Below, piece by piece: positions 7,661 through 34,425 of a stretch of DNA of 64,000 nucleotides. The stretch comes from Candidatus Campbellbacteria bacterium RIFOXYC2_FULL_35_25 (GTDB taxonomy: Bacteria; Patescibacteriota; Minisyncoccia; Phycocordibacterales; UBA12079): assembly GCA_001774495.1 (NCBI GenBank), contig MFAE01000006.1:5356-69355 (forward strand), read 5' to 3'. How positions within the stretch are numbered: position 1 is the stretch's first letter; every line of letters begins with the position of its first letter. Below the pieces are notes generated by a model that saw only the letters and a list, made by a program, of their open reading frames with translations, had not been told where the DNA came from and made no database searches. Both the position numbers and the translations under genes were made by a program.

Positions 7661-7675
7661 AAGGATAAGTATAAA

Positions 7676-7706
7676 CCCCCACACCTTTTTTTAAAAGGTG
7701 TGGGGG
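7676..7706. mobile_element. MITE-like element copy 1 (minimal): 13-14-bp terminal inverted repeats CCCCCACACCTTT/AAAGGTGTGGGGG, 3-5-nt centre, flanked by 4-bp direct repeat TAAA
   Basis: Read directly: taaa-CCCCCACACCTTTT-ttt-AAAAGGTGTGGGGG-taaa. The same inverted repeats and 4-bp duplications occur at 55585-55709 and 62294-62383. Confidence 0.6.
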
Positions 7707-7730
7707 TAAAGTAGCTAGTATCGAGAAACA

Positions 7731-8349: not shown

Positions 8350-8439
8350 TCTTGAGAACCTCCTTTAGGTAAAAGTAGTGGTTAGAAGACCAAAATTCTA
8401 TGTCGAGGGTATCAAAAAAGACCCAAAAACACAAGCAAA

Positions 8440-8474
8440 CCAAAAAGTTGGGTGTCCGACACCCAACTTTTTGG
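8440..8474 (-). terminator. intrinsic (bidirectional) terminator: ccaaaaagttgggtgtc-g-gacacccaactttttgg
   Basis: Perfect 17-bp palindrome flanked by A- and T-runs, 3' of the helicase gene on the minus strand. Confidence 0.7.
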
Positions 8475-8508
8475 TTTTTTAAATTTTCTACCAAATATCC
8501 ACTGCTCA

Positions 8509-10538: not shown

Positions 10539-10653
10539 GCTTTTCTCCTTATAGCTAAAGTTACATTTACTCTTCAAACATCCTAGCAACAAGATATCAA
10601 AAGCAAGGGCTTAGGTCAAACGCTAACCAAAAAAACATAACTTTTTGGCAAAA

Positions 10654-10685
10654 ACAAAAAAATCCGCTTTGCGGATTTTTTTTGT
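10654..10685 (-). terminator. intrinsic bidirectional terminator (aaaaaaatccgc-ttt-gcggattttttt)
   Basis: Stem atccgc/gcggat extended by A-run/T-run pairing, about 25 nt 3' of the R1 element on the minus strand. Confidence 0.65.
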
Positions 10686-10708
10686 TTTCTTGATTAGTTG
10701 AATAAGTT

Positions 10709-11523: not shown

Positions 11524-11535
11524 AGAAATTTTAGT

Positions 11536-11570
11536 AAAAAAAGGATTTTGCTTCGCAAAATCCTTTTTTT
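11536..11570 (-). terminator. intrinsic bidirectional terminator (aaaaaaaggattttgc-ttc-gcaaaatcctttttttt)
   Basis: Perfect 9-bp stem with A- and T-runs, 3' of R2 on the minus strand. Confidence 0.7.
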
Positions 11571-11598
11571 ACTACATATGTTATTGTTTCTAAATAAT

Positions 11599-22144: not shown

Positions 22145-23062
22145 TTACTCCTTTTCAGCAATAAACCAGATATAATTTACTCGACCAGTTAAAACAACTA
22201 GCCTACTTAAGCTAACGCCTACTATTTTTTTAATAAAACTATTTTTTGCGTATCTTCTTTTTGATTGATTATTCTCATCAAAAACTACTTTGGATGAAAT
22301 ACTTTCTTGTTTCTTTTTATCTAAAAGGCCTAACCTAAAAAGGGACTCTCTAATAGGTAAATTATTTTGATTAAAATCCCTTTTTCCTGTGGCAACTATT
22401 TTAAAACCTCCCTTTTTTAAGAGTTCCCTCAATGTATTTTTATTAAAATAATAAAGGTGTTCTTTATAAATTAACTTATTTTTATAATTAGATTTTTTTA
22501 TAGAATATGAATTAATATCAGGAGTTTCTATAATTAAACGACCTTCTTTTGGCAAAGAATCAAACACTTCTTTGATTGCTGCCAGAGGATCATTGAGATG
22601 TTCGATTAAATGGAACATTGTTACTACTTTTATATTATTTCTGGAAACAATTTCTTTTAAACCATCTTCAATAGTTTTTTGGTAAACAATTAAGTTATTT
22701 TTTGTATAAAATTCAGACGCTTCACTATTTGGCTCTATCCCTATAATATTTTCATACTCAGCATCAGACAGTGTTTTTAAAAATAATCCCCGGCCAGTAC
22801 CGATATCGCATAAATTTTTCAAATCAACATATTTTGAAAAAAGATTAACCCTATCCTTCATATCCAAGATTTTGGCATGAATTTTTTCATCATTCAGGTC
22901 AATTTTTTTTATACCTTGATTTTCATAATGTTTTATATCAACATCAAAATTTGCTCTCCAAACCAAACCGCATTCCAAGCACTCCCTCATCAAGAGATTG
23001 CTCATCAATTTTTCTGTCGAATCTTTATGGCACAAAATACACTTTTGAGGGGAAGTTTTCAT
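22145..23062 (-). CDS. class I SAM-dependent methyltransferase with N-terminal zinc ribbon
   Basis: CxxC...CxxC (CILCHK...CLECGLVW) followed by a Methyltransf_11/23 fold (DIGTGRGLF). Confidence 0.6.
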   Translation of the reverse strand: MKTSPQKCILCHKDSTEKLMSNLLMRECLECGLVWRANFDVDIKHYENQGIKKIDLNDEKIHAKILDMKDRVNLFSKYVDLKNLCDIGTGRGLFLKTLSDAEYENIIGIEPNSEASEFYTKNNLIVYQKTIEDGLKEIVSRNNIKVVTMFHLIEHLNDPLAAIKEVFDSLPKEGRLIIETPDINSYSIKKSNYKNKLIYKEHLYYFNKNTLRELLKKGGFKIVATGKRDFNQNNLPIRESLFRLGLLDKKKQESISSKVVFDENNQSKRRYAKNSFIKKIVGVSLSRLVVLTGRVNYIWFIAEKE

Positions 23063-23065
23063 TTT

Positions 23066-24040
23066 TTATTTTTCTAAAGAAAAAAGTACATCACCTTTTG
23101 ACATTTTTTGATGAATATCAAGTTTCGACTTAACTCCATTAACATCCAAACGATAAATAGTATAGCCTAGAGAGTTCATAAACTTAAAAACATCAAGTCT
23201 CGTTTCGTTGTTATTGACTTCACAAACAATATTTAATATTTTTTTTCTTTTCAATAAATTTTCCATACCTTTCAGCGCGTCAAGTTCATATCCCTCGATA
23301 TCTATTTTCATAAAATCAACTCTGTCTATATTGTTTTCAACGGCAAAATCATCTATCTTTAGTACATCAATCTTTTGTAATAGTTTTTTGTCATTAAATT
23401 TATCTTTATCAAATTTGAGATCTCCAAATTTATAAAACTTAAATTCAATAAAACTATGCCCCCCATTATTCAAGGGGTGCAGATATAGAGTTAACTTCTC
23501 GTTTTTGTTTCCTACTCCTTTATTTATGGCGAAAATATTTAAAAAAATATTTTCGTTTACATTTTTAACTAAAAAATTGAAATTGTTTTTTTCTGGTTCA
23601 AAAGCGAAAATTTTTCCCTCCTTCCCGACCAATGGCGACAATAGTATCGAAAAATATCCAACATTAGACCCAATGTCAAAAAAAGTATCTCCTTTTTTAA
23701 TGTTGTTTAAAAAAAAATTAGAAATATTAATTTCATAAAGTTTGTGAGAATAAATGTTCCTCTGATTCACTCTTGATAAATCAACATCAATCACCCCTCC
23801 TGTTTTTAATCTCTTTTTAACCCAATTTTCTTCGTAATCATCTCGAAACATTACGCACATCATTTGCTTCAAAAATTCATAAAACCAAAAATAATATCTT
23901 CCTCCTAATTTAAAAGATATATTGCAGAAAAAAACTACTACTTTTCTTTTTTTGTTTTTATCCAAAAAAGAGAAGAGGAACCCTAAGCAACCTCCCGCTA
24001 TTTGAATTATTCTTTTTAAAAAATTTTTCACTCTTTTCAT
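23066..24040 (-). CDS. FkbM-family methyltransferase
   Basis: FFDIGSNVGYFSILL...IFAFEPEKNNF motif typical of Methyltransf_21 (FkbM). Confidence 0.7.
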   Translation of the reverse strand: MKRVKNFLKRIIQIAGGCLGFLFSFLDKNKKRKVVVFFCNISFKLGGRYYFWFYEFLKQMMCVMFRDDYEENWVKKRLKTGGVIDVDLSRVNQRNIYSHKLYEINISNFFLNNIKKGDTFFDIGSNVGYFSILLSPLVGKEGKIFAFEPEKNNFNFLVKNVNENIFLNIFAINKGVGNKNEKLTLYLHPLNNGGHSFIEFKFYKFGDLKFDKDKFNDKKLLQKIDVLKIDDFAVENNIDRVDFMKIDIEGYELDALKGMENLLKRKKILNIVCEVNNNETRLDVFKFMNSLGYTIYRLDVNGVKSKLDIHQKMSKGDVLFSLEK

Positions 24041-25179
24041 TTTTTACTTACTAAGAATCTAAACAAATTATCAAATTCTTTAATAACCATACTAACACTA
24101 ATTTCGTTCGTTTGCCTCAAAGCCTCTTTCTTATCATAAGCCCTAGCATTCATCACATATAATTCTGGTTTCTCTCGATTGTCGATACAAACAACCCTGT
24201 GGATATCACTAATAGGAGGCTGTTCTCTTTCATCAATTGGACCAGTGATATCTATTGTAGCTACCCCGAAAGCTTCAGCAATATAAATTGGGCCAGTATC
24301 CACGCTAATAAAAATATTCATTTTTGAAATTAAAACTTTTAATTCATCTATATTAAACGCATCTAGTGTATTAAAAATTTGAGTATCTTTACTTAAGAAA
24401 CTAATCATTTCTTTTACCTCAACTTCATCCCTCTTCCCTCCAATAACAATGATTTTAGCATCATATTTTTTATAAATATAATCAGCCAATTCGGCGAACT
24501 TATCTGCCCCCCATTTTTTTATTTTATTTCCAGCAGAAGGAGATATTCCGATAACCAAATCATTTTTATTTATATTATTATTTCCAAAATAATTATTTAC
24601 TTTTTTATTTGCTTCATCAGAAAAATATAAATATTTTTTAGTATCAGTAACGAAAATATCAATAGGCTCTAATAGTTTTAAATACTCTCTGGGGGCATAA
24701 CTTCCCATTTTATGAGACATTGTAATAACCAGTTTTCTTAAAATTTTATATTCCCATACTTCATAAGGGGAATATCCGTTTTCTATAAAAGGAACAACTA
24801 TTGTTTTAACATTAGCTAAATATAAAATAGCCAAACTAACAAAATCAGGAGCTGTCACACAAGCAAAATCTACATTTTCTTTTTTTACTTCTTTAACAAC
24901 TCTTAAAAAATTATTGAATACAATATACTTGTTTACATCGCTGTTCCCTTCTAGAATATCCTTATTAATTTTATTCCCTACTACGATTACTTCACAATCT
25001 GGGTATTTCCCCTTCACCGCCCTAAACATTGGGGTGGTGCAAACCATATCCCCCAATTTAGCCATCTGAACAACTAAAACTTTTCTAGATTTATCTACTT
25101 TTTTATTCGCCTTACCTTTGTAGATAGAAAAAAATAAACAGAACAAAAGTAATATTATTTTTTTTATTTTAAAAATCAT
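24037..25179 (-). CDS. glycosyltransferase family 9 (heptosyltransferase-like)
   Basis: KVLVVQMAKLGDMVCTTPMFRAVK N-terminal GT9 motif, two-domain GT-B. Confidence 0.7.
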   Translation of the reverse strand: MIFKIKKIILLLFCLFFSIYKGKANKKVDKSRKVLVVQMAKLGDMVCTTPMFRAVKGKYPDCEVIVVGNKINKDILEGNSDVNKYIVFNNFLRVVKEVKKENVDFACVTAPDFVSLAILYLANVKTIVVPFIENGYSPYEVWEYKILRKLVITMSHKMGSYAPREYLKLLEPIDIFVTDTKKYLYFSDEANKKVNNYFGNNNINKNDLVIGISPSAGNKIKKWGADKFAELADYIYKKYDAKIIVIGGKRDEVEVKEMISFLSKDTQIFNTLDAFNIDELKVLISKMNIFISVDTGPIYIAEAFGVATIDITGPIDEREQPPISDIHRVVCIDNREKPELYVMNARAYDKKEALRQTNEISVSMVIKEFDNLFRFLVSKK

Positions 25180-25181
25180 TT

Positions 25182-26258
25182 TTATTTTATAAAATCAATC
25201 ACCTGCTCAGATCTTTCCCTCCATGTATAATTTTGAACATCAAAAAAAGATTGCTCTGATATTTTAACACCTAACTCATTATTATTTAAAATTCGACTAA
25301 TACCCTCAGCCAATTTTTTTGAATTATCAGGCTCAACCAAGACTGCATTACCTTCATTAAGAATCTCTCTGATAGACGGCAAATCTGATGCTACAATAGG
25401 AGTTTTTCCTGCCATATATTCAAACATCTTTAAAGGAGACGTGTAGTACTTAGAAATATCCTCTTTGGCTGTGTTGGGCAACACAACAACATCGGCTGAT
25501 TTTATCCAAAATGGCATTTCTTCATGTGGGCGGGAACCTACTAATAAAATATTCTTATATCTTATATTTTTATTTTTAAAATCCTCGACATGATGTTCTT
25601 TTCCTCCCACAAAAACTATCATGGAATTATCGCTCAGGTATTGGGACGATTCAGCCAAAGTTTGAACACCCTTCCATTCGTACAAGAGGCCAATATAAAC
25701 AATGATTTTTTTACCCAACGGTAAATTGAGTTTTTTTCTAGCCTCCTCTTTAGAAATTTCAATATCAAATTTTTTAATATTTACTCCGTCAGGGGAAACA
25801 AAAACATTATTTGTGTTCTGTATGACTTCAGCGAATTTACTTTTTATATATTTTGTTAAAACAATGACTTTATCACTCTTTTCTAAAATATATTTATACC
25901 AAAATGATTTTTTAGAATTGAAATCATGCGCCTCGTAGATAAACTTTAATGGCAACCTAAAAAATAATTTATTATAAAAAATAAGAAAAAATAAAAGCTT
26001 TTCTTCTCGACAATAGATATGAGTAAATTTGTTTTTTTTAATAAAAAATAGATATTTCAAGGACAACAAAAAACTTCGCGAAGATCCTTCTATATTTTTA
26101 ATATTCAAACGAGAGTCTTCTTTTATTTTTATATCTTTTCCGCCTAAAACAAAATTTTCTTTTAAAATACTTTGAAATTCCTGAGACATCTGAATAATTT
26201 GCAGTCTATTCGTCTGGTATGAGGGGAAACTTATTGATGTAGCATATAATAATTTCAT
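25182..26258 (-). CDS. glycosyltransferase family 4 (GT-B)
   Basis: C-terminal Glycos_transf_1-like region (E..G..PIVASD...I). Confidence 0.65.
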   Translation of the reverse strand: MKLLYATSISFPSYQTNRLQIIQMSQEFQSILKENFVLGGKDIKIKEDSRLNIKNIEGSSRSFLLSLKYLFFIKKNKFTHIYCREEKLLFFLIFYNKLFFRLPLKFIYEAHDFNSKKSFWYKYILEKSDKVIVLTKYIKSKFAEVIQNTNNVFVSPDGVNIKKFDIEISKEEARKKLNLPLGKKIIVYIGLLYEWKGVQTLAESSQYLSDNSMIVFVGGKEHHVEDFKNKNIRYKNILLVGSRPHEEMPFWIKSADVVVLPNTAKEDISKYYTSPLKMFEYMAGKTPIVASDLPSIREILNEGNAVLVEPDNSKKLAEGISRILNNNELGVKISEQSFFDVQNYTWRERSEQVIDFIK

Positions 26259-26261
26259 TGT

Positions 26262-27431
26262 TTATTCTAAATCTAATGCTTTTAAATATTGATTTAATAT
26301 TTTTTTTGAATCAAAATCTTCTCCCCTCATTAAACTAAGTCCTGAATATTTTTCTCTCAAACCCTTATCACTTAATAATTTTTGTACCGCTTCTGAAGTT
26401 TCTTTTACCCCGCCCATAGGAACTAGTATTCCATATTTTCCGTATTCGATACCTTCATCCATACGATACAATAGGTCTGTATCCGGAGCAATCATTTCTC
26501 TAGGCCCCGAACTGCAATCTGTGGCTACAACAGGAACCCCACAAACCATTGCTTCCTGAAGTGAATTAGAAAAACCCTCCCAAATTGAGGTAGTAACAAA
26601 GACATCAGCCTTTGTCATAAAAGAATACGAATTTTCAGAAAAACCAAAAAAATCAACATCTTCTCTTACCCCTAATTCTTTGGCAAGCTCTTCCATTTTC
26701 TTTTGTTCACGACCGATACCAACAAATAAAATACGGGATGGTACATTTTTTCGAACTTCTTTAAAAGCCTTCATTAAAGTGGGAATGTCTTTTTGCACCC
26801 TCAACCTACCGACAAATAAAATTACTGGTAAATCTTTATTATCCAACCAAATATGCCCCGTTTTTTCCTTTCCCATTCTCTTTATCTCCTCAACTGATTT
26901 TGGGTTATGAATTACTTTTATTTTATCTTTTGGGATTTTAAAAACTTTTGAAATATCATCGGCCACCCCAAAAGAATTTGCTATAAAAATATCAGAATAC
27001 TTATATATCCTTTTTGTTATAAAAGGAATTAAAAAACCTTGTTTGAAACCTTTGTATTGAGAAAATAATATTGAGAACATATTTCCCATTCGAAAAACTA
27101 CTTTTGTTTCGACTCTTGCTATCTTTTTTGAAACTAGTGAAATAATATGGGTAAACTCATCAGTAGCGATTAAAATATCTGGTTTATTTTTTTTAAGATA
27201 AGAAATCATCTTAGGAATGCTAAAAATTATTCTCCCAACATTTAAATCAATAATGTTTATCCCCTCCTTAACTTGTTCTTTATATTGCCCAACTGGTTTT
27301 ATAACTGGCATATCAACCTTAAACCCTAAATCGGCGAAACCATTGGCCAAATTAACCAGATTTCTCTCGCCCCCTCCGGCTCGAAATGACGACAGAAATA
27401 TTGCTATTTTTTTATTTTTTTTATCTTCCAT
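26262..27431 (-). CDS. glycosyltransferase family 4 (GT-B)
   Basis: GT4 N-domain (KIAIFLSSFRAGGGERN) and C-domain EGFSNSLQEAMVCGVPVVATD. Confidence 0.75.
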   Translation of the reverse strand: MEDKKNKKIAIFLSSFRAGGGERNLVNLANGFADLGFKVDMPVIKPVGQYKEQVKEGINIIDLNVGRIIFSIPKMISYLKKNKPDILIATDEFTHIISLVSKKIARVETKVVFRMGNMFSILFSQYKGFKQGFLIPFITKRIYKYSDIFIANSFGVADDISKVFKIPKDKIKVIHNPKSVEEIKRMGKEKTGHIWLDNKDLPVILFVGRLRVQKDIPTLMKAFKEVRKNVPSRILFVGIGREQKKMEELAKELGVREDVDFFGFSENSYSFMTKADVFVTTSIWEGFSNSLQEAMVCGVPVVATDCSSGPREMIAPDTDLLYRMDEGIEYGKYGILVPMGGVKETSEAVQKLLSDKGLREKYSGLSLMRGEDFDSKKILNQYLKALDLE

Positions 27432-27435
27432 CTTT

Positions 27436-28497
27436 TTATAATTCTTTTTTTATATAATCAAAGATTATCTCTTTGGGGACAATCTCAAAGCACTTATTTT
27501 CTCCTCTATTATTTTTAACAATATGATCTAATCCTGAATAAATGCCATCTTCGGATTCTCTTAATTTATATAGTATCGTTGCATTTTTATTATAGTAAGG
27601 CAACCAGTTTAAAGTTCCATTATTAGCGATAACCAAAGATTTTTTGTTTATGAAAGAAGCAAGGTGGGTTACCCCTGTATCAACACCAATAAAACAGATT
27701 GAGTTATTGATGAGATTAAGAAGGCAATTAGGATTTAACCCGCTGACAATTTTAACTCTTGAATCTTTTAAAAAATAATTTTCGATCTCCCTCGTGTAAT
27801 CTTTGTCTGAATTTCCTGCAGTTAACAGTATCTCAGTATTTTCATCTAAATCTAAAATATTTTCCAAAACCCAAATGATGTCTTTATTATTTATACTTCT
27901 TTTTCTAACAGAGCCAAATGGATGAAACACTAAATATTTCTTATCTTTGACACCAAATTTTTCTAGACAATCCAAATTGGGTAAATACCGAAGACTAGGA
28001 ACATTTTTTTTTAAACTAAATCCAATCTCCTGCAATAAATTCTTCATTACATCCAAATAAAAAATCGTTGTGTCGAATTTAAAAAATTTATCATAAAAAA
28101 AATTAAATTTACTTAAATCTTTAAACCCAACCAAAAAACTTCTTGGCATCAAAGAAATAATTCTGGCTAAAATTTTCACCCTAAGCGGAATTGAACCAGC
28201 GGTAGGAGGAACGACAACGTAGTTAGAGTCAAATAAAAACTTTACTAAAGGGACACCTAAATTACTTTTATTTGCCTCAACAACATTAAGATAATTATAA
28301 GAAATAATCATTTCTTTAAAAAAAGACTTATTTCTAGGAACAACTATATATAAATTAAGTTTGGGATTAGAAAGATGGACATTTTCCATAAAAAAAATAG
28401 TCATAAGAAAATCACCAATTGATCCGTTTTGAAAAAAAAATAAATTTTTTATAGACTGAAAATTATTCATGGTGGATCTTCTTGTTTTTGGCCTCAA
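27436..28497 (-). CDS. glycosyltransferase family 9 (heptosyltransferase-like)
   Basis: FQNGSIGDFLMT N-terminal GT9 motif, GT-B fold. Confidence 0.6.
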   Translation of the reverse strand: MRPKTRRSTMNNFQSIKNLFFFQNGSIGDFLMTIFFMENVHLSNPKLNLYIVVPRNKSFFKEMIISYNYLNVVEANKSNLGVPLVKFLFDSNYVVVPPTAGSIPLRVKILARIISLMPRSFLVGFKDLSKFNFFYDKFFKFDTTIFYLDVMKNLLQEIGFSLKKNVPSLRYLPNLDCLEKFGVKDKKYLVFHPFGSVRKRSINNKDIIWVLENILDLDENTEILLTAGNSDKDYTREIENYFLKDSRVKIVSGLNPNCLLNLINNSICFIGVDTGVTHLASFINKKSLVIANNGTLNWLPYYNKNATILYKLRESEDGIYSGLDHIVKNNRGENKCFEIVPKEIIFDYIKKEL

Positions 28498-29119
28498 ATA
28501 AAATCATAAAAGAAAACATTCCCGGCCAAATTTTATCCAAAGAAATAAAACGCCCCAAAGGAAATAGACCCACATCATTAAAATATTTTTTAAACAAATT
28601 GTTTAACTCCCTTCTAGAAAAGTGATTAATATGAGTTGGGTCGTGCAAAGGGGTAGCTTTTTTCTTCCCAAAAAATAACCTGATTCTGTTCTTTAAACTA
28701 AAAGCATTCGGAACAGAACCCAATAAAGCACCTTCGGGTTTTAATATAAACGAAATTTTTTGAATTATTTTTTCAGGATAATATAAATGTTCCAAAATCT
28801 CACCAGCAACAACTATGTCAAAACTATTTTCTAAAAAACCCCAGTCTTCATATAGATTTAAATGTTTTGTTTCTATATTTAATTGAGATTTTGCCTTCTC
28901 TAAAGACTCCTCATCAACATCAACCCCTAAAACGCTATTACCCGCGCAATAAGTTTTGGTTAATTCACCATCACGACACCCAATATCTAAAATTCTTTTC
29001 CCTTTTCCGATCCTTTCTCTTAAAAAAGAGCCTCTTTCATCACCAAAAAGTGTTTTCCCTCTCCTCCCCCCATCTCTATGGTGCTCTGTATAAATTTTTT
29101 TTAAAGAATCATTATTCAT
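28463..29119 (-). CDS. class I SAM-dependent methyltransferase
   Basis: ILDIGCRDGELT (motif I) and DIVVAGEILEHL (motif II/III). Confidence 0.7.
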   Translation of the reverse strand: MNNDSLKKIYTEHHRDGGRRGKTLFGDERGSFLRERIGKGKRILDIGCRDGELTKTYCAGNSVLGVDVDEESLEKAKSQLNIETKHLNLYEDWGFLENSFDIVVAGEILEHLYYPEKIIQKISFILKPEGALLGSVPNAFSLKNRIRLFFGKKKATPLHDPTHINHFSRRELNNLFKKYFNDVGLFPLGRFISLDKIWPGMFSFMILFEAKNKKIHHE

Positions 29120-30176
29120 ATATACTTTTTATTTTTTTAATTAAGTTTCCAATACTATGATTACCAGCAACGGTGTTCCTTAATTCAATACCTAAAGATT
29201 TTCTGCCTTTATCTCCAAGATCAAACATTTCTTTTATTTTATCACATAAAATAACAAAATCATTTTTAGGAAACATTAAACGTTCCTTGAAACCACCCAA
29301 AACCTCCAGAAAAGCTTCGTTGCAATTTAAGATAGGAATTCCGCAGGCCATTGATTCCAAAACTGTCTTGTCTAAACTTCCTGTGTGACTTGTATTAACA
29401 AACAAATCGGACTCCTTTAGATACTTTGGTATCTCGCTATTTGAAACGGGCCCAACAAAAATAATATTATTTTCTAAATTCTTTTGACGCACCATTAATT
29501 TTAATGAATCAAAATACTTTTCCTGTTCAGACAAAACAACACCCCCGATAATCCTAAGCTTTATATTTATTCCACCGCTAACAAGCTTTTCGATTGCCTT
29601 TATCAAAGTTTCATAATCTTTCACAGGAGAAATCCTGCCAACAGTTACGACACTAAAAATAGTAGGTTTTATTATATTCAAACCTGGTTTGAAAATTTCT
29701 AGATTAATTCCTTGTCCAACGACTTTCTTTTTTTTACTATCTATACGAAAGCCGCTTTCTGTGGAAGTAAAAACATGATTGGTGATTTTTTCTGCTATTC
29801 TCAAGCTAAAAGGAACAGACCCGTGAGCATACCATAAACCAACTTTTTTACCCCACAATCGCCAAAATAGACCTCCTAGGAGCACATAAACTTGGTTCAT
29901 ATGTACAAAAACTTGCTCATAACCGGCTCTTTCTTGCCAAATGTATTTATAAAAATTTAAAATGTATTTTAGTTTAGAAACACCCCTCTCTTTCCCAAGA
30001 GAAAGGACCTTCACATTTTCAGGCAAATCATGTTTTCCTTCATAAAGACAGATAACTGTTACCTTTTCATAGTTTTTAGCGAACTCCAAAATCCACCCAT
30101 GGAAGAAACCAAGGACGTCATCATTTTTGTCTACTTTTTGTGTGAGTATTAGTAATTTCATTATTACTTTTTCCAA
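29112..30176 (-). CDS. glycosyltransferase family 4
   Basis: GT4 C-domain (LDKTVLESMACGIPIL). The ORF track starts at TTG 30176 and an ATG lies at 30161. By my reading the frame stays open upstream into the AbrB-like mini-ORF (see finding). Confidence 0.7.
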   Translation of the reverse strand: MEKVIMKLLILTQKVDKNDDVLGFFHGWILEFAKNYEKVTVICLYEGKHDLPENVKVLSLGKERGVSKLKYILNFYKYIWQERAGYEQVFVHMNQVYVLLGGLFWRLWGKKVGLWYAHGSVPFSLRIAEKITNHVFTSTESGFRIDSKKKKVVGQGINLEIFKPGLNIIKPTIFSVVTVGRISPVKDYETLIKAIEKLVSGGINIKLRIIGGVVLSEQEKYFDSLKLMVRQKNLENNIIFVGPVSNSEIPKYLKESDLFVNTSHTGSLDKTVLESMACGIPILNCNEAFLEVLGGFKERLMFPKNDFVILCDKIKEMFDLGDKGRKSLGIELRNTVAGNHSIGNLIKKIKSIYE

Positions 30177-30344
30177 TCTTTAATTACTATTTTTTTATTT
30201 TTTTTATCTACATTAACAACAAGTTTCTGTGATTTTATCCAACCCAAATCTCTGATCCCTTCAATAGGCAAGGTAACAAAGTATGTAGGACCATTTTTTG
30301 CTAATTTTCGAATATTTCTATCTTCTAGTTTTCTTCTTGCCATA
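30177..30344 (-). CDS. AbrB/MazE/SpoVT-like swapped-hairpin DNA-binding domain mini-ORF (56 aa), apparently lacking its own stop codon
   Basis: Own translation from ATG 30344: MARRKLEDRNIRKLAKNGPTYFVTLPIEGIRDLGWIKSQKLVVNVDKKNKKIVIK. Matches the V.LP.E.R.LG.K.GD.V.V..D...IVI. pattern of the SpoVT_AbrB domain. In frame with the GT4 ORF downstream. Confidence 0.45.
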
Positions 30345-30358
30345 ATAAGTAAATTTTA

Positions 30359-30394
30359 ACTGTATAATTAACTGTACAGTTAATTATACAGTTA
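30359..30394. promoter_or_regulatory. perfect 36-bp palindrome AACTGTATAATTAACTGTACAGTTAATTATACAGTT (candidate operator overlapping divergent TATAAT boxes)
   Basis: Sequence equals its own reverse complement. Lies 14 nt upstream of the AbrB-like ORF and 140 nt upstream of the plus-strand HAD gene. Carries a TATAAT hexamer on both strands. Confidence 0.6.
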
Positions 30395-30533
30395 ATTCTA
30401 GTTAAAACAATTTTTTCATGCTACTATTTTGAGTATTGGTATTGTATATAAGATATTCACATAATATACAATATTTCGTTATTAATAGTTCGAAATTTCG
30501 TATAAAAACGAGTTATGTGTAATTTATTTTTTC

Positions 30534-31139
30534 ATGATTAAAATTATTATTTTTGACTTTGACGGAGTTATTCTTGACAATTACGAGCTTCACTACTCGT
30601 TTATTCAAAAACAGATAACTAACATAACAAGGGAAGAACATAGGAGGTTGTTTGATGGAAACATTAATGTTGAGCGAGAAAAACTATCTCATAGAAATAC
30701 TGGGTACGATATAAAAAAACATTTTAGTGACGCTAAGCTTGAAACTGTTATTGATTCTGAGGTAAAAGTAATTCTGAAATCTCTATCGGAAAAATACATG
30801 CTAGGGATTATTACCTCCGCAAGAGAATACGGGGTAAAAGGTTGTCTTGAATATAATCGATTAAGTAAATATTTTTCATTTATTTATGGGTATGAAACCG
30901 GCACATTAAAGAAAGATAAATTTAAAAAAGTTTTTGCGGAGCATGCTGTCTCTCCAAATAAATGTATCTTTGTTGCAGATACAGTTGGAGACATATTGGA
31001 AGCTCGTGAAGTGGGAGTTGAAACAATTGCAGTTGATTTTGGATATCACAACAAGGAGCGTCTTAGCAAAGTTAATCCCTTGGCAATAGCTTCTAATTTT
31101 AGCGAAGTATCTCAAATCGTCAGCAAAATAAGGGTATAA
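30534..31139 (+). CDS. HAD-superfamily hydrolase (subfamily IA-like phosphatase)
   Basis: Motif I IIIFDFDGVILDN, motif II ITSA, motif IV VADTVGDI...EVG. Confidence 0.8.
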   Translation: MIKIIIFDFDGVILDNYELHYSFIQKQITNITREEHRRLFDGNINVEREKLSHRNTGYDIKKHFSDAKLETVIDSEVKVILKSLSEKYMLGIITSAREYGVKGCLEYNRLSKYFSFIYGYETGTLKKDKFKKVFAEHAVSPNKCIFVADTVGDILEAREVGVETIAVDFGYHNKERLSKVNPLAIASNFSEVSQIVSKIRV

Positions 31140-31260
31140 AAAAATAAACTACACATAACAGCGTGTATGAGGCTACGGTTTTTTACAAAAGCCTTCGCCC
31201 AAATTACTTCGTAACTTCTCATACATACAAACGTTAGGCGGAATAAATTAATTTACTATT

Positions 31261-31710
31261 ATGGAAATAACAAAACATTTTACAGCTACTACCTACATCG
31301 TATATGAAAAGATGGTGCTTTTACATTTCCACAAAAAACTTAACCTGTGGTTAGCTATTGGCGGGCACATCGATGACAACGAATTACCAGAGGAAACCGC
31401 ACTACGCGAAATAGTTGAAGAAGCTGGTTTAGTTGCGACTCTATATAATCCAGATAAACAACTCGGGGTTAGTGATATTAAACAATTATTTCGCCCAATG
31501 CACATCTTGCTTGAAGATATTACGGAAACACATAAACATATTGATTTTATTTACTATGCAACATCTCAATCTAATGTTTTGAACCCACAAGAGGGCGAAA
31601 CCGACGACCTTAAGTGGTTTACAGCAGATGAAATTGAAAAACTTGATGCCCCAGAAAATGTAAAAGCAATTTCTTTAACAGCCATTAATCTGCTAGGCAC
31701 CTCAAGTTAA
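31261..31710 (+). CDS. NUDIX hydrolase
   Basis: Nudix box GGHIDDNELPEETALREIVEEAGL (Gx5Ex7REUxEExGU). Confidence 0.8.
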   Translation: MEITKHFTATTYIVYEKMVLLHFHKKLNLWLAIGGHIDDNELPEETALREIVEEAGLVATLYNPDKQLGVSDIKQLFRPMHILLEDITETHKHIDFIYYATSQSNVLNPQEGETDDLKWFTADEIEKLDAPENVKAISLTAINLLGTSS

Positions 31711-31775: not shown

Positions 31776-32912
31776 TTAAACAAAACACCTCTCCCAATCC
31801 TCTTTGATTAATTGCAAATAATCTTGTTTGTTTTTTATAATTCTACTATCAATATCTTCCATAGCTTTTAGAGTCATTGTTTTCAGCTTTGCTTTGTTAT
31901 TTAAAATTTCTTCTAACTTTTTAATAAAACATTTTTTGTTTCCTACTTTACAAATTTCGACACTCCCTTCTTTTAAGACATCCCCCACCAAACCAACATC
32001 GGTGGTTAAAACAGGACAACCAGAAGCGGCCGCCTCAATAAGCGTCATTCCGTATCCTTCAAAATTTGAAGTATTTAAAAACAAATCAGCAGTTTTATAA
32101 TAAGAAACTAAATTGTCTTGCCACCCAGCAAAGACAATCGAAGCTGATAGCTTATAGCTTAGAGCTGATAGCTCAAGACTTTTTCTTAACGAACCGTCGC
32201 CGACAATCACTAGCCCGACTTTTGGATATTCTTTGATAATTTCTTTCATTACATCCATAGCCAAAGGAATATTTTTCTCCTTTTCCAGGCGTGAAGCCAT
32301 CAGAATAATAAATTCAAATTTAGAATATTTTTTATGTAAGTCTATTTTGGGCTGTGTATTTTTTATCTTTTCTAAATCAACAAAAATAGGTAATATTGAA
32401 ATTTTTTCTGCTTTTTTAATCTGCCACTTACTAATAGAATTTTTAATCCTTTCACTAACAACACGAACTCCATCAGCCTGCATTATTAAAAGAGTCGCCA
32501 ACTGACCCCTGCTTTTATTTAAAACGGACGCCATTTGGAACTTCATACTCAAAAAATCTGCGTGAACCTGCAAGTGTAATTTTGCTTTTTTTGTTTTAGC
32601 GATAAACCAACCAACCAAGCCTGTTTCAAACGGATCTTGAGTTGTCACCAGCCACTTATCTCTATTTAAATTACTTCCGATTATCTTTCTCCCGATTCTG
32701 ATTGCGTCAAAAATATACATAAATTTATTTATAGAATTCGTCGAATAAACTTGAGTCCGATTCCCAATAATCCTTCTTTCGAAACCAGTTTTTTTAGAAA
32801 AGACAATAATATGCAAGTCATCAACTAAATTTCCATATTCAACCATCCTCTGCCTCACCGCAGAATTTTCCTCAAAAATCTTTCTATCTGTTGAAATCAT
32901 TAAAACTTTCAT
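31776..32912 (-). CDS. glycosyltransferase family 4
   Basis: GT4 C-domain FEGYGMTLIEAAASGCPVLTTDVG. Confidence 0.75.
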   Translation of the reverse strand: MKVLMISTDRKIFEENSAVRQRMVEYGNLVDDLHIIVFSKKTGFERRIIGNRTQVYSTNSINKFMYIFDAIRIGRKIIGSNLNRDKWLVTTQDPFETGLVGWFIAKTKKAKLHLQVHADFLSMKFQMASVLNKSRGQLATLLIMQADGVRVVSERIKNSISKWQIKKAEKISILPIFVDLEKIKNTQPKIDLHKKYSKFEFIILMASRLEKEKNIPLAMDVMKEIIKEYPKVGLVIVGDGSLRKSLELSALSYKLSASIVFAGWQDNLVSYYKTADLFLNTSNFEGYGMTLIEAAASGCPVLTTDVGLVGDVLKEGSVEICKVGNKKCFIKKLEEILNNKAKLKTMTLKAMEDIDSRIIKNKQDYLQLIKEDWERCFV

Positions 32913-32921
32913 CTTTTTATT

Positions 32922-34019
32922 TTATATATTTTTTAAAAGCCCTGATATCTCGCCGAGCATTTTTTCTCTATTAAAGTTCTTTACTTCCTCTTGAGCGTTC
33001 ATAGCGAAATCTACTTTCATTTGATTATTCCCCAACAATCTTATTACAGCCTCTTTTAACTCGTCTTTGTCATCGTAAGAAACTAGCAAGCCATCTTTGT
33101 TATTTTCAATTATTTCTGGATTACCTCCAACATCTGTAGTTATAATAGGAGTACCAACCGACATCACTTCTAGCAACTGATGGGACAGCCCTTCATAACC
33201 AGTATTTAAAACAAACAAATCTGATGCTTTTATATACCTCAAGAGTCTATCTTGAGGCAAGCTTCCTAACAAAAAAACTTTTCCTACCAAACCAAAATTA
33301 TTTATTTTTTGTTCCAACTTTTCTTTATCAGGACCATCACCAGCAATAAATAATTTAATATTTGGCAAATCTTTCACGACTTCAATTAAAGTCTCAAAAC
33401 CCTTCCAGGGAACAAACCTTCCTACAGAAAAAATAATGTTTTCAATAAAACCAAATCCCTTTCTCAACGTCTCTTTTGATTCTTCCACCTCTTTAGGAGC
33501 AAAAGCATTGTAAACAACTTTTATTTTTCCTTCTTCTATACCCCACATCATTACAATCTTTTTCAGATAATTACTTGGGACCACAATCGTATCTGCCTTT
33601 TCCCCCACCCACCTTTCAATTTTTCTCCTTAGACTAGAAACCCAATCAACCTTCATATTTTGAAAATCTTCTGGGGTAACAAAACTAACCCCCTGTCCTT
33701 GTTGCTGTTGCTCCCAAGCGTAATCACCCACCATTTTCAAAACAAATTTTTTGCCAAGAATTTTCGCCACTAAAACTGAAGGTAACCCCACTGAAACAGG
33801 ATCCTGAGCATAAATTAAATCTACCTCTTTACCTTTTTTTAAAGTTTTTAAAAAATAAGCAAAATGTCTAATTATTTTAGGTAAATGTCGTACCTCACCA
33901 AAAGACAAAACTTCCACCTCAATTCCTTTTTTAGGCAATTCATCAAAAAGCAACTTGGAATAAGTCGCCGGCCCCCCAAAATCTGGTGGGTAAATCCCTG
34001 TACAGATAAGAATCTTCAT
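32922..34019 (-). CDS. glycosyltransferase family 4
   Basis: N-domain MKILICTGIYPPDFGGPATY and C-domain YEGLSHQLLEVMSVGTPIITTDVGG. Confidence 0.75.
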   Translation of the reverse strand: MKILICTGIYPPDFGGPATYSKLLFDELPKKGIEVEVLSFGEVRHLPKIIRHFAYFLKTLKKGKEVDLIYAQDPVSVGLPSVLVAKILGKKFVLKMVGDYAWEQQQQGQGVSFVTPEDFQNMKVDWVSSLRRKIERWVGEKADTIVVPSNYLKKIVMMWGIEEGKIKVVYNAFAPKEVEESKETLRKGFGFIENIIFSVGRFVPWKGFETLIEVVKDLPNIKLFIAGDGPDKEKLEQKINNFGLVGKVFLLGSLPQDRLLRYIKASDLFVLNTGYEGLSHQLLEVMSVGTPIITTDVGGNPEIIENNKDGLLVSYDDKDELKEAVIRLLGNNQMKVDFAMNAQEEVKNFNREKMLGEISGLLKNI

Positions 34020-34387: not shown

Positions 34388-34425
34388 AAAAAGGCAGGAA
34401 CCCCTAGGGGTTCCTGCCTTTGCTA
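34388..34425 (+). terminator. intrinsic terminator (ggcaggaacccc-ta-ggggttcctgcc + ttt)
   Basis: Perfect 12-bp GC-rich palindrome followed by a T-run. Confidence 0.75.

What the first reader, a model, noticed from the sequence alone, without database searches (positions are those of the whole stretch)
30161..30394. AbrB/MazE-type swapped-hairpin mini-ORF behind a perfect 36-bp palindrome, apparently reading through in frame into a GT4 glycosyltransferase
A 56-codon ORF (ATG 30344) encodes a SpoVT/AbrB-like DNA-binding domain. 14 nt upstream lies a perfect 36-bp palindrome, AACTGTATAATTAACTGTACAGTTAATTATACAGTT, with a TATAAT hexamer on both strands. That is a textbook autoregulated operator, and it also faces the divergent HAD gene.

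By my codon-by-codon reading there is no stop codon between this ORF and the GT4 gene: ...KKIVIKRLEKVIMKLL... continues into MEKVIMK... This would give either a transcription-factor-glycosyltransferase fusion or translational coupling without a stop.

The ORF track nevertheless starts the GT4 at TTG 30176. That disagrees with my reading. A single miscount in the T-runs at 30191-30206 would reconcile the two.
Basis: seen in the sequence. Interest (0 to 1): 0.65.

Follow-up and report, generated by a model that had tools for sequence, protein, structure and literature searches.

The report
Small AbrB-type repressor with phased operator

Summary
The palindrome and the small gene are real. The claimed in-frame read-through is a one-base reading slip.

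- **Small gene:** 30343..30164 (-), 59 aa. It ends in TAA TAA TGA.
- **GT4 gene:** starts at ATG 30161, 2 nt after that stop, in another frame. That frame has its own upstream stop at 30182-30180.
- **Fold:** SpoVT/AbrB swapped-hairpin, supported at family level. 63 of 82 relatives hit PF04014, a family profile hits the AbrB N-domain at E=0.002, and an AlphaFold model (pLDDT 88) superposes on SpoVT and AbrB at 1.6 A.
- **Palindrome:** 40 bp (30356-30395). It resolves into TTAA-CTGTATAA-TTAA-CTGTACAG-TTAA-TTATACAG-TTAA, three 8-bp boxes at a strict 12-bp phase. A TATAAT lies in the promoter-distal box.
- **Relatives:** they carry the same 12-bp/TTAA-N8 layout with lineage-specific box sequences. 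20 of 37 upstream regions have it, against 0.6% of background windows.

Best reading: a stand-alone autorepressor that is the first cistron of a tightly packed 9-gene glycosyl/methyltransferase operon, working much as MraZ does.

In close relatives, a nuclease or defence-like gene (NYN, GIY-YIG, RhuM-Fic) sits between the regulator and the GT4. The window has none there.

This is a new member of a known kind, of moderate interest.

The parts
30164..30343 (-). Stand-alone 59-aa SpoVT/AbrB-fold protein gene, stop included: MARRKLEDRNIRKLAKNGPTYFVTLPIEGIRDLGWIKSQKLVVNVDKKNKKIVIKDWKK. Residues 1-11 form a basic arm. Residues 12-57 form the beta-beta-alpha-beta-beta domain.
   Evidence: ORF and translation. 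An identical protein is on record as a hypothetical protein of Candidatus Campbellbacteria RIFOXYC2_FULL_35_25. Divergence from relatives is biased to third codon positions, e.g. 9/5/22 against L007. PF04014 support at family level. Profile hit to the AbrB N-domain, E=0.0022. AlphaFold model with pLDDT 88. Top 20 Foldseek matches in the PDB are all SpoVT/AbrB/MazE/VapB/Sso7c4-type.
30164..30166 (-). TAA stop of the small gene. It is followed in frame by TAA (30163-30161) and TGA (30160-30158).
30180..30182 (-). TAA stop in the GT4 reading frame, upstream of the TTG at 30176. It closes the GT4 frame against the small ORF.
   Evidence: Frame 2 translation reads ...KNSN*RLEKVIMKLL.
30356..30395 (.). 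Operator: a perfect 40-bp palindrome. In the gene's orientation it reads TTAA-CTGTATAA-TTAA-CTGTACAG-TTAA-TTATACAG-TTAA. Box 1 is 30391-30384, box 2 is 30379-30372, box 3 is 30367-30360. The TTAA spacers are at 30395-92, 30383-80, 30371-68 and 30359-56.
   Evidence: It is the only conserved block in the intergenic alignment of WIN, L007, L040, L001 and L038. The same 12-bp/TTAA-N8 layout, with other box sequences, occurs upstream of homologues.
30383..30388 (-). Candidate -10 hexamer TATAAT for the small gene and its operon. It lies in the inner half of box 1 plus the first base of the spacer.
   Evidence: Read from the sequence. Relatives keep a TATAAT or CATAAT in or next to the first box, with a TTGnnn 15-19 nt upstream. 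This is a consensus match only. The transcription start site has not been determined.
30405..30410 (-). Candidate -35 hexamer TTGTTT, 16 nt upstream of the TATAAT.
   Evidence: Read from the sequence. It is a weak match (3 of 6) and was not reported by the stricter scan.
29112..30161 (-). GT4 glycosyltransferase, second cistron. The true start is most likely ATG 30161 (MKLLILTQK...), 2 nt after the regulator's stop (TAA-ta-ATG), not TTG 30176.
   Evidence: PF00534 E=1e-23. Orthologues begin MKLLILTQK / MRLLVFTQ. Junction sequences.
22145..29119 (-). Remainder of the tightly packed operon. Gaps or overlaps are at most 4 nt, apart from two small overlaps. Order: methyltransferase, GT9, GT4, GT4, GT9, FkbM methyltransferase, methyltransferase.
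   Evidence: ORF coordinates. Pfam assignments.
30534..31139 (+). Divergent HAD-family hydrolase gene, followed by a NUDIX gene at 31261-31710. The pair interrupts the GT cluster only in this window.
   Evidence: No such pair lies next to the regulator in the relatives whose flanks were examined, where a co-directional GT4 or radical-SAM gene sits upstream.

Best explanation
The small ORF is an independent gene for a 59-residue, single-domain SpoVT/AbrB-fold (swapped-hairpin) DNA-binding protein.

**Proposed mechanism**
- It binds, presumably as an array of dimers, to three 8-bp boxes held at a strict 12-bp phase by TTAA spacers at 30356-30395.
- The boxes overlap the likely -10 element and the start region of its own promoter.
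- It therefore represses its own transcription and that of the eight tightly packed glycosyl- and methyltransferase genes downstream (30343 to 22145, minus strand).
- The GT4 gene is translated separately from ATG 30161, 2 nt after the regulator's stop codon. This is ordinary stop-start coupling, not a fusion.

**Shown here**
- The separate reading frames.
- The fold assignment.
- The conservation and the layout of the boxes.
- The operon arrangement.

**Inferred**
- DNA binding by this protein.
- Repression.
- The position of the promoter.
- The idea that the conserved basic N-terminal arm reads the TTAA spacers while the variable beta1-beta2 hairpin reads the boxes.
For: **Frames**
- Three in-frame stops end the small ORF, and the GT4 lies in another frame.

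**Real gene**
- Substitutions against relatives are biased to third codon positions, with 15-19 synonymous codon changes.
- 393 representative clusters match at E<=1e-3. The 150 best listed are at most 360 aa, mostly near 60 aa.

**Fold**
- PF04014 matches 21 of 21 close homologues, best E=6.8e-7, and 63 of 82 wider relatives, best E=3e-11.
- The family profile hits the AbrB N-domain 1z0r at E=0.0022 over residues 11-57. Sso7c4-type proteins score about 0.01.
- The AlphaFold model has pLDDT 88 and beta-beta-alpha-beta-beta topology.
- It superposes on SpoVT and AbrB at rmsd 1.6 A over 47-49 columns, with Foldseek probability 0.94-0.98.

**Operator**
- The 40-bp perfect palindrome is unique in the window.
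- It is the only conserved intergenic block among relatives whose flanks are unalignable. It is identical in L007 even though the coding sequences are about 80% identical in nucleotides (36 of 177 differ).
- An exact 8-mer direct repeat at spacing 12 occurs upstream of 20 of 37 homologues. No spacing from 13 to 23 occurs at all, and spacings 7 and 11 occur in one locus each.
- The background rate is 17 of 2850 windows of 100 nt, binomial p about 5e-35.
- TTAA-N8-TTAA-N8-TTAA occurs upstream of 11 of 37 homologues, against 1 hit in 295 kb of other DNA, and only with an N8 spacer.
- Box sequences differ by lineage (CTGTACAG, ATACGTAT, TTACGTAA, CTCAGTAG, TCGGGTGA and others) while the frame stays fixed.

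**Operon**
- All nine genes are co-directional with gaps of at most 4 nt or small overlaps. The 190-bp region holding the operator is the only space for a promoter.
- L011 (Kaiserbacteria) has the same regulator-to-GT4 junction, TAATG.

**Precedent**
- MraZ is an AbrB-like first gene of an envelope operon that binds 3-4 phased boxes overlapping its own transcription start site (PMC12957436).
Against: - No binding, transcription start site or expression data exist.
- The window protein alone is below the Pfam gathering score (15.5 against 24.7 bits). It has no NCBIfam model.
- Foldseek E-values are not significant (0.5 or higher) because the domain is tiny.
- The -35 match is weak, and the stricter promoter scan did not call this promoter.
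- In five close relatives, a NYN nuclease gene rather than the GT4 follows the regulator directly. The protein may therefore have evolved as the controller of that cargo gene rather than of the GT operon.
- The 37 loci are not phylogenetically independent. By my count from the sequences, about 14 distinct box types are represented.
Confidence: 0.7

Rival explanations
1. The gene is an orphaned antitoxin-like or controller gene. On this view the AbrB-like gene and its operator belong to a two-gene cassette with a nuclease or toxin (NYN, GIY-YIG, RhuM-Fic). The window lineage has lost the nuclease, and the regulator remains as a remnant that happens to sit in front of the GT4.
For: - In L001, L007, L009, L040 and L041, a NYN (PF01936) gene starts within -4 to +2 nt of the regulator's stop.
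- L008 has a GIY-YIG gene there, L042 has RhuM plus Fic (strong hits to PADLOC candidates PDC-S05 and PDC-S23), and L031 has a Cas4-like PD-(D/E)XK gene.
- AbrB-fold antitoxins accompany about 24% of toxin-antitoxin-associated PIN-like domains (PMC5499597).
- The window's three closest relatives with readable context (80-81% identity) all carry the NYN gene.
Against: - The protein ends 2 residues after the AbrB domain. It therefore lacks the C-terminal toxin-binding tail of MazE and VapB.
- There is no constant partner. GT4, GlmS, ComEC, MBOAT and LRR genes also follow directly.
- Among the loci whose flanks could be read, NYN was seen with the regulator only inside this GT cluster (the L007 contig is too short to tell).
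- NYN (PF01936) has no demonstrated toxin role (PMC5499597).
- The regulator has no PADLOC hit and no match in the phage or plasmid collections.
- L011, a distant relative, has the same direct regulator-to-GT4 junction.
- Even if this account of its origin is true, the gene in the window would still act as an autorepressor of the GT operon.
Confidence: 0.2
2. The palindrome acts as a nucleic-acid hairpin rather than a protein-binding site: a terminator, a 5'-UTR stem that controls translation, or a cruciform or recombination site.
For: - As RNA it folds into an 18-bp stem, -22.1 kcal/mol, z=-5.9 against shuffles.
- The terminator-like scan flags it on both strands.
- In L038 the outer arms changed symmetrically.
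Against: - It lies between divergently transcribed genes, so there is nothing to terminate.
- It has only 3 G-C pairs and no T-run. The window's real terminator-like hairpins have GC-rich cores flanked by A and T runs.
- In relatives the conserved property is 12-bp phased boxes, which are often direct repeats or self-symmetric boxes that cannot form one long hairpin: L008, L013, L023, L026.
- L001 and L040 break the global symmetry at 2-3 positions while keeping the boxes.
- No real Rfam family matches.
Confidence: 0.04
3. A regulator-glycosyltransferase fusion protein is made after all, by programmed -1 ribosomal frameshifting at G_AAA_AAG (30173-30167), just before the stop. The product would read ...KDWKK-VIMKLL...
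For: - The GT4 frame is -1 relative to the small ORF and is open from 30179.
- The heptamer resembles the dnaX slippery site A_AAA_AAG. That comparison rests on my own knowledge.
Against: - The frame relation between the regulator and the next gene is not conserved: -1 in WIN, L001, L007 and L011, 0 in L041 and L031, +1 in L033.
- The A-run simply encodes the conserved C-terminal DWKK in a 34% GC genome.
- I saw no SD-like stimulator upstream and only a weak 6-bp A/U stem downstream (read).
- None of the 150 best representatives has fusion length.
Confidence: 0.02
4. The palindrome is the binding site of a different regulator, for example a LexA-type SOS box or a regulator of the HAD gene, and its position next to the AbrB-like gene is coincidental.
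For: - CTGT...ACAG motifs recall the gamma-proteobacterial SOS box (my own knowledge).
- The site also faces the HAD gene.
- The same 24-bp core occurs in unrelated GC-rich contigs L037 and L039 with no AbrB-like gene nearby.
Against: - The CTGT/ACAG spacings here are N0, N12 and N24, not N8 (read).
- The box sequence changes from lineage to lineage together with the adjacent AbrB-like gene, while the 12-bp frame and the position 12-30 nt before its ATG stay fixed.
- The HAD gene is absent from this position in relatives that keep the identical operator.
Confidence: 0.04

Closest known systems
MraZ, the AbrB-like first gene of the dcw cell-wall/division operon
   Same: It is an AbrB-type 'cradle' DNA-binding fold. 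It is the first cistron of a cell-envelope operon. It autoregulates through 3-4 short phased boxes upstream of its own gene, with the transcription start site inside a box (PMC12957436).
   Different: MraZ is reported to assemble into octamer and nonamer rings and contacts one box per subunit, using residues as far apart as Lys13 and Arg86. From my own knowledge it is about 150 aa with two fused half-domains. Its boxes are GTG(G/T) direct repeats with 6-nt spacers, a 10-bp period. Here the protein is a 59-aa single half-domain that must dimerise. The boxes are 8 bp, partly dyad-symmetric, at a 12-bp period with TTAA spacers. The operon encodes glycosyl- and methyltransferases, not dcw genes.
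AbrB / Abh / SpoVT N-terminal domains (Bacillus)
   Same: These are the best sequence and structure matches: 1z0r at E=0.0022 over residues 11-57, and rmsd 1.6 A to 2w1t and 9a4b. The beta-beta-alpha-beta-beta topology is the same.
   Different: AbrB (94 aa) and SpoVT (about 178 aa) carry C-terminal multimerisation or GAF domains and bind many loosely defined sites (my own knowledge, plus chain lengths). This protein has no C-terminal domain. It has an extra conserved basic N-terminal arm, a beta1-beta2 hairpin 4 residues longer, and a sharply defined operator.
AbrB-fold type II antitoxins (MazE, PemI/Kis, VapB such as Caulobacter VapB1)
   Same: Same Pfam family (PF04014). Each is a small gene at the head of an operon, with a palindromic autoregulatory operator and a stop-start overlap with the next gene. 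Structural matches: 1ub4_C, 1mvf_D, 5l6l_E. Relatives are followed by a PIN-like NYN gene.
   Different: There is no C-terminal toxin-binding extension. No toxin gene is present in the window. The downstream partner is not constant across the family.
Archaeal and viral stand-alone AbrB-fold proteins (Sso7c4-type 2l66/5itj/5itm, C68 of pSSVx, C56 of pSSVi)
   Same: Same size class (46-60 aa chains) and a single AbrB half-domain with no extra domain. Profile hits are at E about 0.01-0.06, with TM 0.7 normalised by target length.
   Different: These are from Sulfolobus chromosomes and plasmid-viruses. The deposited entries call the 5itj/5itm proteins histone-like, which points to general DNA binding. 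The family here is bacterial (candidate phyla radiation and some Bacteroidota genomes from metagenomes) and is tied to a specific phased operator next to its own gene.
Controller (C) proteins of restriction-modification systems (functional analogy only)
   Same: A tiny autoregulatory DNA-binding protein encoded just upstream of, and co-transcribed with, a nuclease gene. It binds adjacent symmetric boxes in its own promoter (my own knowledge). This parallels the relatives in which NYN, GIY-YIG or PD-(D/E)XK genes follow.
   Different: C proteins are helix-turn-helix proteins. No modification or restriction genes are present here. The analogy was not tested.

Membership tests
SpoVT/AbrB (MazE_antitoxin, PF04014) swapped-hairpin superfamily | Significant sequence-profile match to the domain | tested here: met
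   The window protein alone is sub-threshold: E=0.017, 15.5 bits against a 24.7-bit cut-off. At family level, 21 of 21 close homologues match at E<=0.1, best 6.8e-7. 63 of 82 wider relatives match at E<=0.001, best 3e-11. The family profile hits the AbrB N-domain at E=0.0022 over the whole domain.
SpoVT/AbrB (MazE_antitoxin, PF04014) swapped-hairpin superfamily | beta1-beta2-alpha-beta3-beta4 half-barrel topology | tested here: met
   AlphaFold model with 82 sequences, pLDDT 88: E14-17, E20-23, H27-33, E41-46, E51-56. The top 20 PDB matches are all from this superfamily, rmsd 1.6-1.9 A to SpoVT, AbrB and MazE. Foldseek E-values are not significant (0.5 or higher) because the domain is short.
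SpoVT/AbrB (MazE_antitoxin, PF04014) swapped-hairpin superfamily | Obligate homodimer forming the interleaved (swapped-hairpin) barrel | not testable with these tools
   Only monomer prediction was available. This needs a multimer prediction or SEC-MALS/NMR.
SpoVT/AbrB (MazE_antitoxin, PF04014) swapped-hairpin superfamily | Binds DNA | not testable with these tools
   Indirect support only: phased boxes, specific to each lineage, lie next to the gene in 20 of 37 loci. EMSA or footprinting is needed.
Type II antitoxin (MazE/VapB type) | Cognate toxin gene immediately downstream | tested here: not met
   In the window the next gene is a GT4 glycosyltransferase. Five relatives have a NYN gene there, but others have GT4, GlmS, ComEC or MBOAT.
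Type II antitoxin (MazE/VapB type) | C-terminal extension beyond the DNA-binding domain that neutralises the toxin | tested here: not met
   The domain aligns to residues 11-57 of 59, and the last strand ends at residue 56. Of the 21 closest homologues, most end within 1-3 residues of the conserved DW, and a minority carry short Lys-rich tails.
Type II antitoxin (MazE/VapB type) | Palindromic operator overlapping its own promoter | tested here: inconclusive
   The operator-like boxes are present and conserved. Overlap with the promoter rests on a TATAAT consensus match only, with no transcription start site.
AbrB proper (transition-state regulator) | C-terminal multimerisation domain, giving a protein of about 94 aa | tested here: not met
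   The protein is 59 aa. The closest homologues are 59-76 aa, and most listed representatives are near 60 aa.
MraZ | [quoted passage not shown] | tested here: not met
   There is a single half-domain. The neighbours are GT4, GT9 and methyltransferase genes. The boxes are at a 12-bp period with TTAA spacers. The MraZ features are taken from PMC12957436.
Translational fusion or stop-less read-through into the GT4 | No in-frame stop between the two coding regions | tested here: not met
   TAA TAA TGA lie in the small ORF's frame. TAA 30182-30180 lies in the GT4 frame.
Intrinsic (rho-independent) terminator | GC-rich stem followed by a T-run at the 3' end of a gene | tested here: not met
   3 G-C pairs in 18, tails AATTTACTTA and TTCTAGTTAA, and a position between divergent gene starts.
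LexA SOS box (gamma-proteobacterial type) | CTGT-N8-ACAG | tested here: not met
   The spacings present are N0, N12 and N24 (sequence). The box sequence changes with the AbrB-like lineage. The consensus is from my own knowledge.

The most novel reading that the evidence does not exclude
This gene belongs to an undescribed family of roughly 60-residue stand-alone AbrB-fold repressors, found mostly in candidate-phyla-radiation bacteria and in some Bacteroidota.
- The family uses a modular operator layout, (TTAA-N8)x3-TTAA at a strict 12-bp phase.
- The near-invariant basic N-terminal arm (MARRK...) would read the constant TTAA spacers. The variable beta1-beta2 hairpin would read the lineage-specific 8-bp boxes.
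- The gene plus operator would act as a portable, self-limiting promoter cassette. It heads envelope-glycosylation operons and repeatedly captures nuclease or defence cargo (NYN, GIY-YIG, RhuM-Fic, Cas4-like) directly behind it.
Probability: 0.3. Interest if true: 0.55.

Novelty: new member of a known kind. Interest (0 to 1): 0.35.

Why it matters
- **For the scan:** the striking claim, a transcription factor fused to a glycosyltransferase, comes from a one-base misreading and should be dropped.
- **What remains:** a clean, testable regulator-operator pair in a candidate-phyla-radiation bacterium. My three literature searches on AbrB in these bacteria and on swapped-hairpin operators found no paper describing such a regulator there.
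- **Why it is tractable:** the protein is only 59 residues, and the operator has a fixed 12-bp frame with a variable 8-bp box. The family therefore offers natural specificity variants for studying how swapped-hairpin proteins read DNA.
- **Biological pointer:** it suggests how these organisms may control a large cell-surface glycosylation operon.
- **Side observation:** the variable gene slot directly behind the regulator hints at a hot spot for nuclease and defence genes.

Tried and rejected
- **In-frame read-through:** rejected by direct translation.
- **Programmed -1 frameshift at G_AAA_AAG:** considered. The frame relation is not conserved in relatives and no fusion-length relatives exist.
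- **Terminator or RNA element:** the hairpin folds well. Its position, its composition, the absence of an Rfam match and the non-palindromic phased boxes in relatives all argue against it.
- **LexA-type box:** the spacing does not fit.
- **PDB sequence search with the shallow alignments A1 and A2:** only noise, or E=0.099 to an 'addiction module antidote'. The deeper alignment A4 was needed.
- **First AlphaFold model with 21 sequences:** weak, pLDDT 65, and its Foldseek ranking was only suggestive.
- 62% probability. I treat this as a lead only.
- **NCBIfam and PADLOC:** no hit for the regulator.
- **Phage and plasmid collections:** no match.
- **Metagenome scan for the central 21-mer:** one true relative (L038) and two unrelated GC-rich contigs.
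- **My first repeat-score statistic:** crude, because self-palindromic AT 8-mers inflate it. It was replaced by the spacing and TTAA-N8 tests.
- **Literature searches for AbrB in Patescibacteria or the candidate phyla radiation:** nothing found.
Full report
**1. Observation**

The minus strand carries a small ORF from ATG 30343 to the TAA at 30166-30164. It encodes 59 residues: MARRKLEDRNIRKLAKNGPTYFVTLPIEGIRDLGWIKSQKLVVNVDKKNKKIVIKDWKK.

It extends to a perfect 40-bp palindrome at 30356-30395. TATAAT is present on both strands. The 9-mer TTAACTGTA occurs four times in the 64-kb window, all inside the palindrome. Chance expectation is 0.82, and no shuffle of 100 reaches 4.

The claim that no stop separates the small ORF from the GT4 gene is wrong.
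- The small ORF's frame ends ...KDWKK and then reads TAA TAA TGA.
- The GT4 is in a different frame.
The slip is not in the T-runs at 30191-30206.
- The GT4 most likely starts at ATG 30161, 2 nt after the stop (TAA-ta-ATG), because orthologues begin MKLLILTQK / MRLLVFTQ. TTG 30176 is only the first possible start in the open frame.

**2. The gene is real and has the AbrB fold**

An identical protein is deposited as a hypothetical protein of Candidatus Campbellbacteria bacterium RIFOXYC2_FULL_35_25. Twenty further clusters are 61-85% identical.

Differences from relatives concentrate at third codon positions, for example 9/5/22 against L007, with 15-19 synonymous codon changes. A profile search of 1.84 billion representative proteins finds 393 clusters at E<=1e-3. 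The 150 best listed are at most 360 aa and mostly near 60 aa, whereas a GT4 fusion would be about 410 aa.

The evidence for the fold:
- The window protein alone is below Pfam's threshold for PF04014 (15.5 against 24.7 bits).
- All 21 close homologues match PF04014 at E<=0.1, best 6.8e-7.
- 63 of 82 wider relatives match it at E<=0.001, best 3e-11.
- An 82-sequence profile hits the AbrB N-domain (1z0r, E=0.0022) across residues 11-57. Sso7c4-type proteins, C56 and MazE follow.
- AlphaFold with that alignment gives pLDDT 88 and the beta-beta-alpha-beta-beta half-barrel.
- Its top 20 PDB matches are all SpoVT, AbrB, MazE, VapB or Sso7c4-type proteins, rmsd 1.6 A to SpoVT and AbrB. The E-values are not significant for so small a domain.

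**3. The operator**

Read in the gene's direction, the palindrome is TTAA-CTGTATAA-TTAA-CTGTACAG-TTAA-TTATACAG-TTAA. That is three 8-bp boxes at a 12-bp phase, delimited by four TTAA spacers.

Among WIN, L007, L040, L001 and L038, this block is the only alignable part of the intergenic region. It is identical in L007 although the two coding sequences differ at 36 of 177 positions.

More distant homologues carry the same frame with different boxes:

| Loci | Box sequence |
|---|---|
| L008, L009 | ATACGTAT |
| L016 | CTCTATAA / TTATAGAG |
| L020, L021 | TTACGTAA |
| L031 | CTACTGAG / CTCAGTAG |
| L028 | TCACCCGA / TCGGGTGA |

The numbers:
- An exact 8-mer direct repeat at spacing 12 occurs in 20 of 37 upstream regions, and at spacing 24 in 6. 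No spacing from 13 to 23 occurs.
- The same feature occurs in 17 of 2850 background windows of 100 nt.
- TTAA-N8-TTAA-N8-TTAA occurs upstream of 11 of 37 loci, against once in 295 kb elsewhere. It occurs only with an N8 spacer.

The conserved property is phased boxes, not one long hairpin. Several arrays are direct repeats or strings of self-symmetric boxes. This favours protein binding over an RNA or DNA hairpin.

**4. Context**

Downstream on the same strand, with gaps of at most 4 nt or small overlaps, lie GT4, a methyltransferase, GT9, GT4, GT4, GT9, an FkbM methyltransferase and another methyltransferase, ending at 22145. The 190-bp region holding the operator is the only room for this operon's promoter.

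A TATAAT (30388-30383, minus strand) sits in box 1. A weak TTGTTT lies 16 nt upstream of it. Relatives have a TTGnnn 15-19 nt upstream of the same TATAAT. No Shine-Dalgarno sequence precedes the gene, which is normal for this genome: 4 of 45 genes have one.

The divergent HAD and NUDIX pair is peculiar to the window. In relatives a co-directional GT4 or radical-SAM gene lies upstream.

In close relatives an extra gene sits between the regulator and the orthologous GT4:
- NYN in L001, L009, L040 and L041. In L007 the contig ends after the NYN gene, so the GT4 is not seen.
- RhuM plus Fic in L042 (PADLOC candidates PDC-S05 and PDC-S23).
- GIY-YIG in L008, where the contig also ends before any GT4.
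- Nothing in the window and in L011.

Distant family members head GlmS, ComEC, MBOAT, Cas4-like or LRR genes. The next gene usually begins within -4 to +3 nt of the stop, but its frame relation varies.

The regulator is more conserved (59-81% identity) than the neighbouring GT4 (36-56%).

**5. Mechanism**

*Shown:* a separate gene, the AbrB fold, a conserved operator with a 12-bp phase that varies with lineage, and the first position in a packed operon.

*Inferred:* dimers of the protein occupy the three boxes cooperatively. They cover the -10 element and the start site, and so repress transcription of the regulator and the eight transferase genes behind it. This is a simple negative-feedback set-point, since the protein has no ligand-binding domain. 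The GT4 is translated by ordinary stop-start coupling.

MraZ is a direct precedent for an AbrB-like first cistron binding phased boxes across its own start site (PMC12957436).

The idea that the invariant basic arm reads TTAA while the variable hairpin reads the box is speculation. It rests on which parts vary.

**6. Rivals**

- **Orphan antitoxin or controller of a lost nuclease cassette (0.2).** It is supported by the NYN neighbours. It is weakened by the lack of a C-terminal tail, the absence of a constant partner, and the L011 junction.
- **Hairpin or terminator (0.04), another factor's site (0.04), frameshift fusion (0.02).** The reasons against these are given above and in the rival entries.

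**7. Comparison and novelty**

It works like MraZ and like the operator-binding half of MazE/VapB antitoxins. It belongs to the SpoVT/AbrB superfamily. It is not AbrB proper, not MraZ and not a canonical antitoxin, because it fails their defining features (see the membership table). Its closest size-mates are the archaeal Sso7c4, C68 and C56 proteins.

I found no paper describing such regulators in candidate-phyla-radiation bacteria. I file it as a new member of a known kind. The strict TTAA-N8 operator layout and the cargo slot are the parts worth following up.

Noticed in passing
L001 5183-5704; L007 582-1106; L009 2372-2911; L040 4180-4713; L041 1324-1836; L008 1781-2023; L042 3156-4162: In close relatives, the position between the AbrB-like gene and the orthologous GT4 (empty in the window) holds a variable gene. 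It is a NYN nuclease in 5 loci, a GIY-YIG gene in 1, and a split RhuM+Fic pair in 1. The RhuM+Fic pair matches PADLOC defence candidates PDC-S05 and PDC-S23 at E=1e-53 to 1e-57. This looks like an insertion hot spot for nuclease or defence cargo.
   Followed up: partly
window 30440-30449 / 30464-30473: A second inverted repeat, TATTGTATAT-N14-ATATACAATA, overlaps the only promoter-like site called upstream of the HAD gene (TTGGTA-18-CATAAT, 30436-30465). It may be a separate operator for the HAD-NUDIX pair.
   Followed up: no
window 30534-31710: The HAD hydrolase and NUDIX genes lie on the opposite strand and split the glycosyltransferase cluster (GT4 genes at 31776-34019 and 22145-30161). In relatives, the GT4 beginning MK(V/I)LMISTDRK lies directly upstream of the regulator and is co-directional with it.
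   Followed up: partly
L037 2126-2147; L039 1021-1042: Two GC-rich (55%) metagenome contigs carry the same 24-bp palindrome core, TAATTAACTGTACAGTTAATTA. No AbrB-like gene is nearby. The neighbouring ORFs are unrelated.
   Followed up: partly
L038 2484-2624: This relative has a symmetric variant of the operator (AAATGTATAA-TTAA-CTGTACAG-TTAA-TTATACATTT). Its AbrB-like ORF stops early at codon 47. This is probably a frameshift, a pseudogene or an assembly error.
   Followed up: no
window, whole (45 large ORFs): Only 4 of 45 genes have a Shine-Dalgarno-like motif within 20 nt of the start. Translation initiation in this genome seems largely SD-independent.
   Followed up: partly
window 8437-8477, 11532-11574, 10650-10688, 7675-7707, 34390-34421: Other long perfect or near-perfect hairpins in the window have GC-rich cores flanked by A-runs and T-runs. 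They look like bidirectional intrinsic terminators, in contrast to the 30356-30395 palindrome.
   Followed up: no
window 30164-30343 vs 29112-30161, and the orthologues in L001, L009, L011, L040-L042: The 59-aa regulator is much more conserved between genomes (59-81% identity) than the adjacent GT4 enzyme (36-56%).
   Followed up: partly
P0164 (360 aa, 5 matched stretches), P0152 (179 aa), P0132 (142 aa), P0114 (137 aa, 2 stretches): A few representatives of the family are much longer than 60 aa or contain repeated matches. They may be tandem or fused versions of the domain. None was inspected.
   Followed up: no
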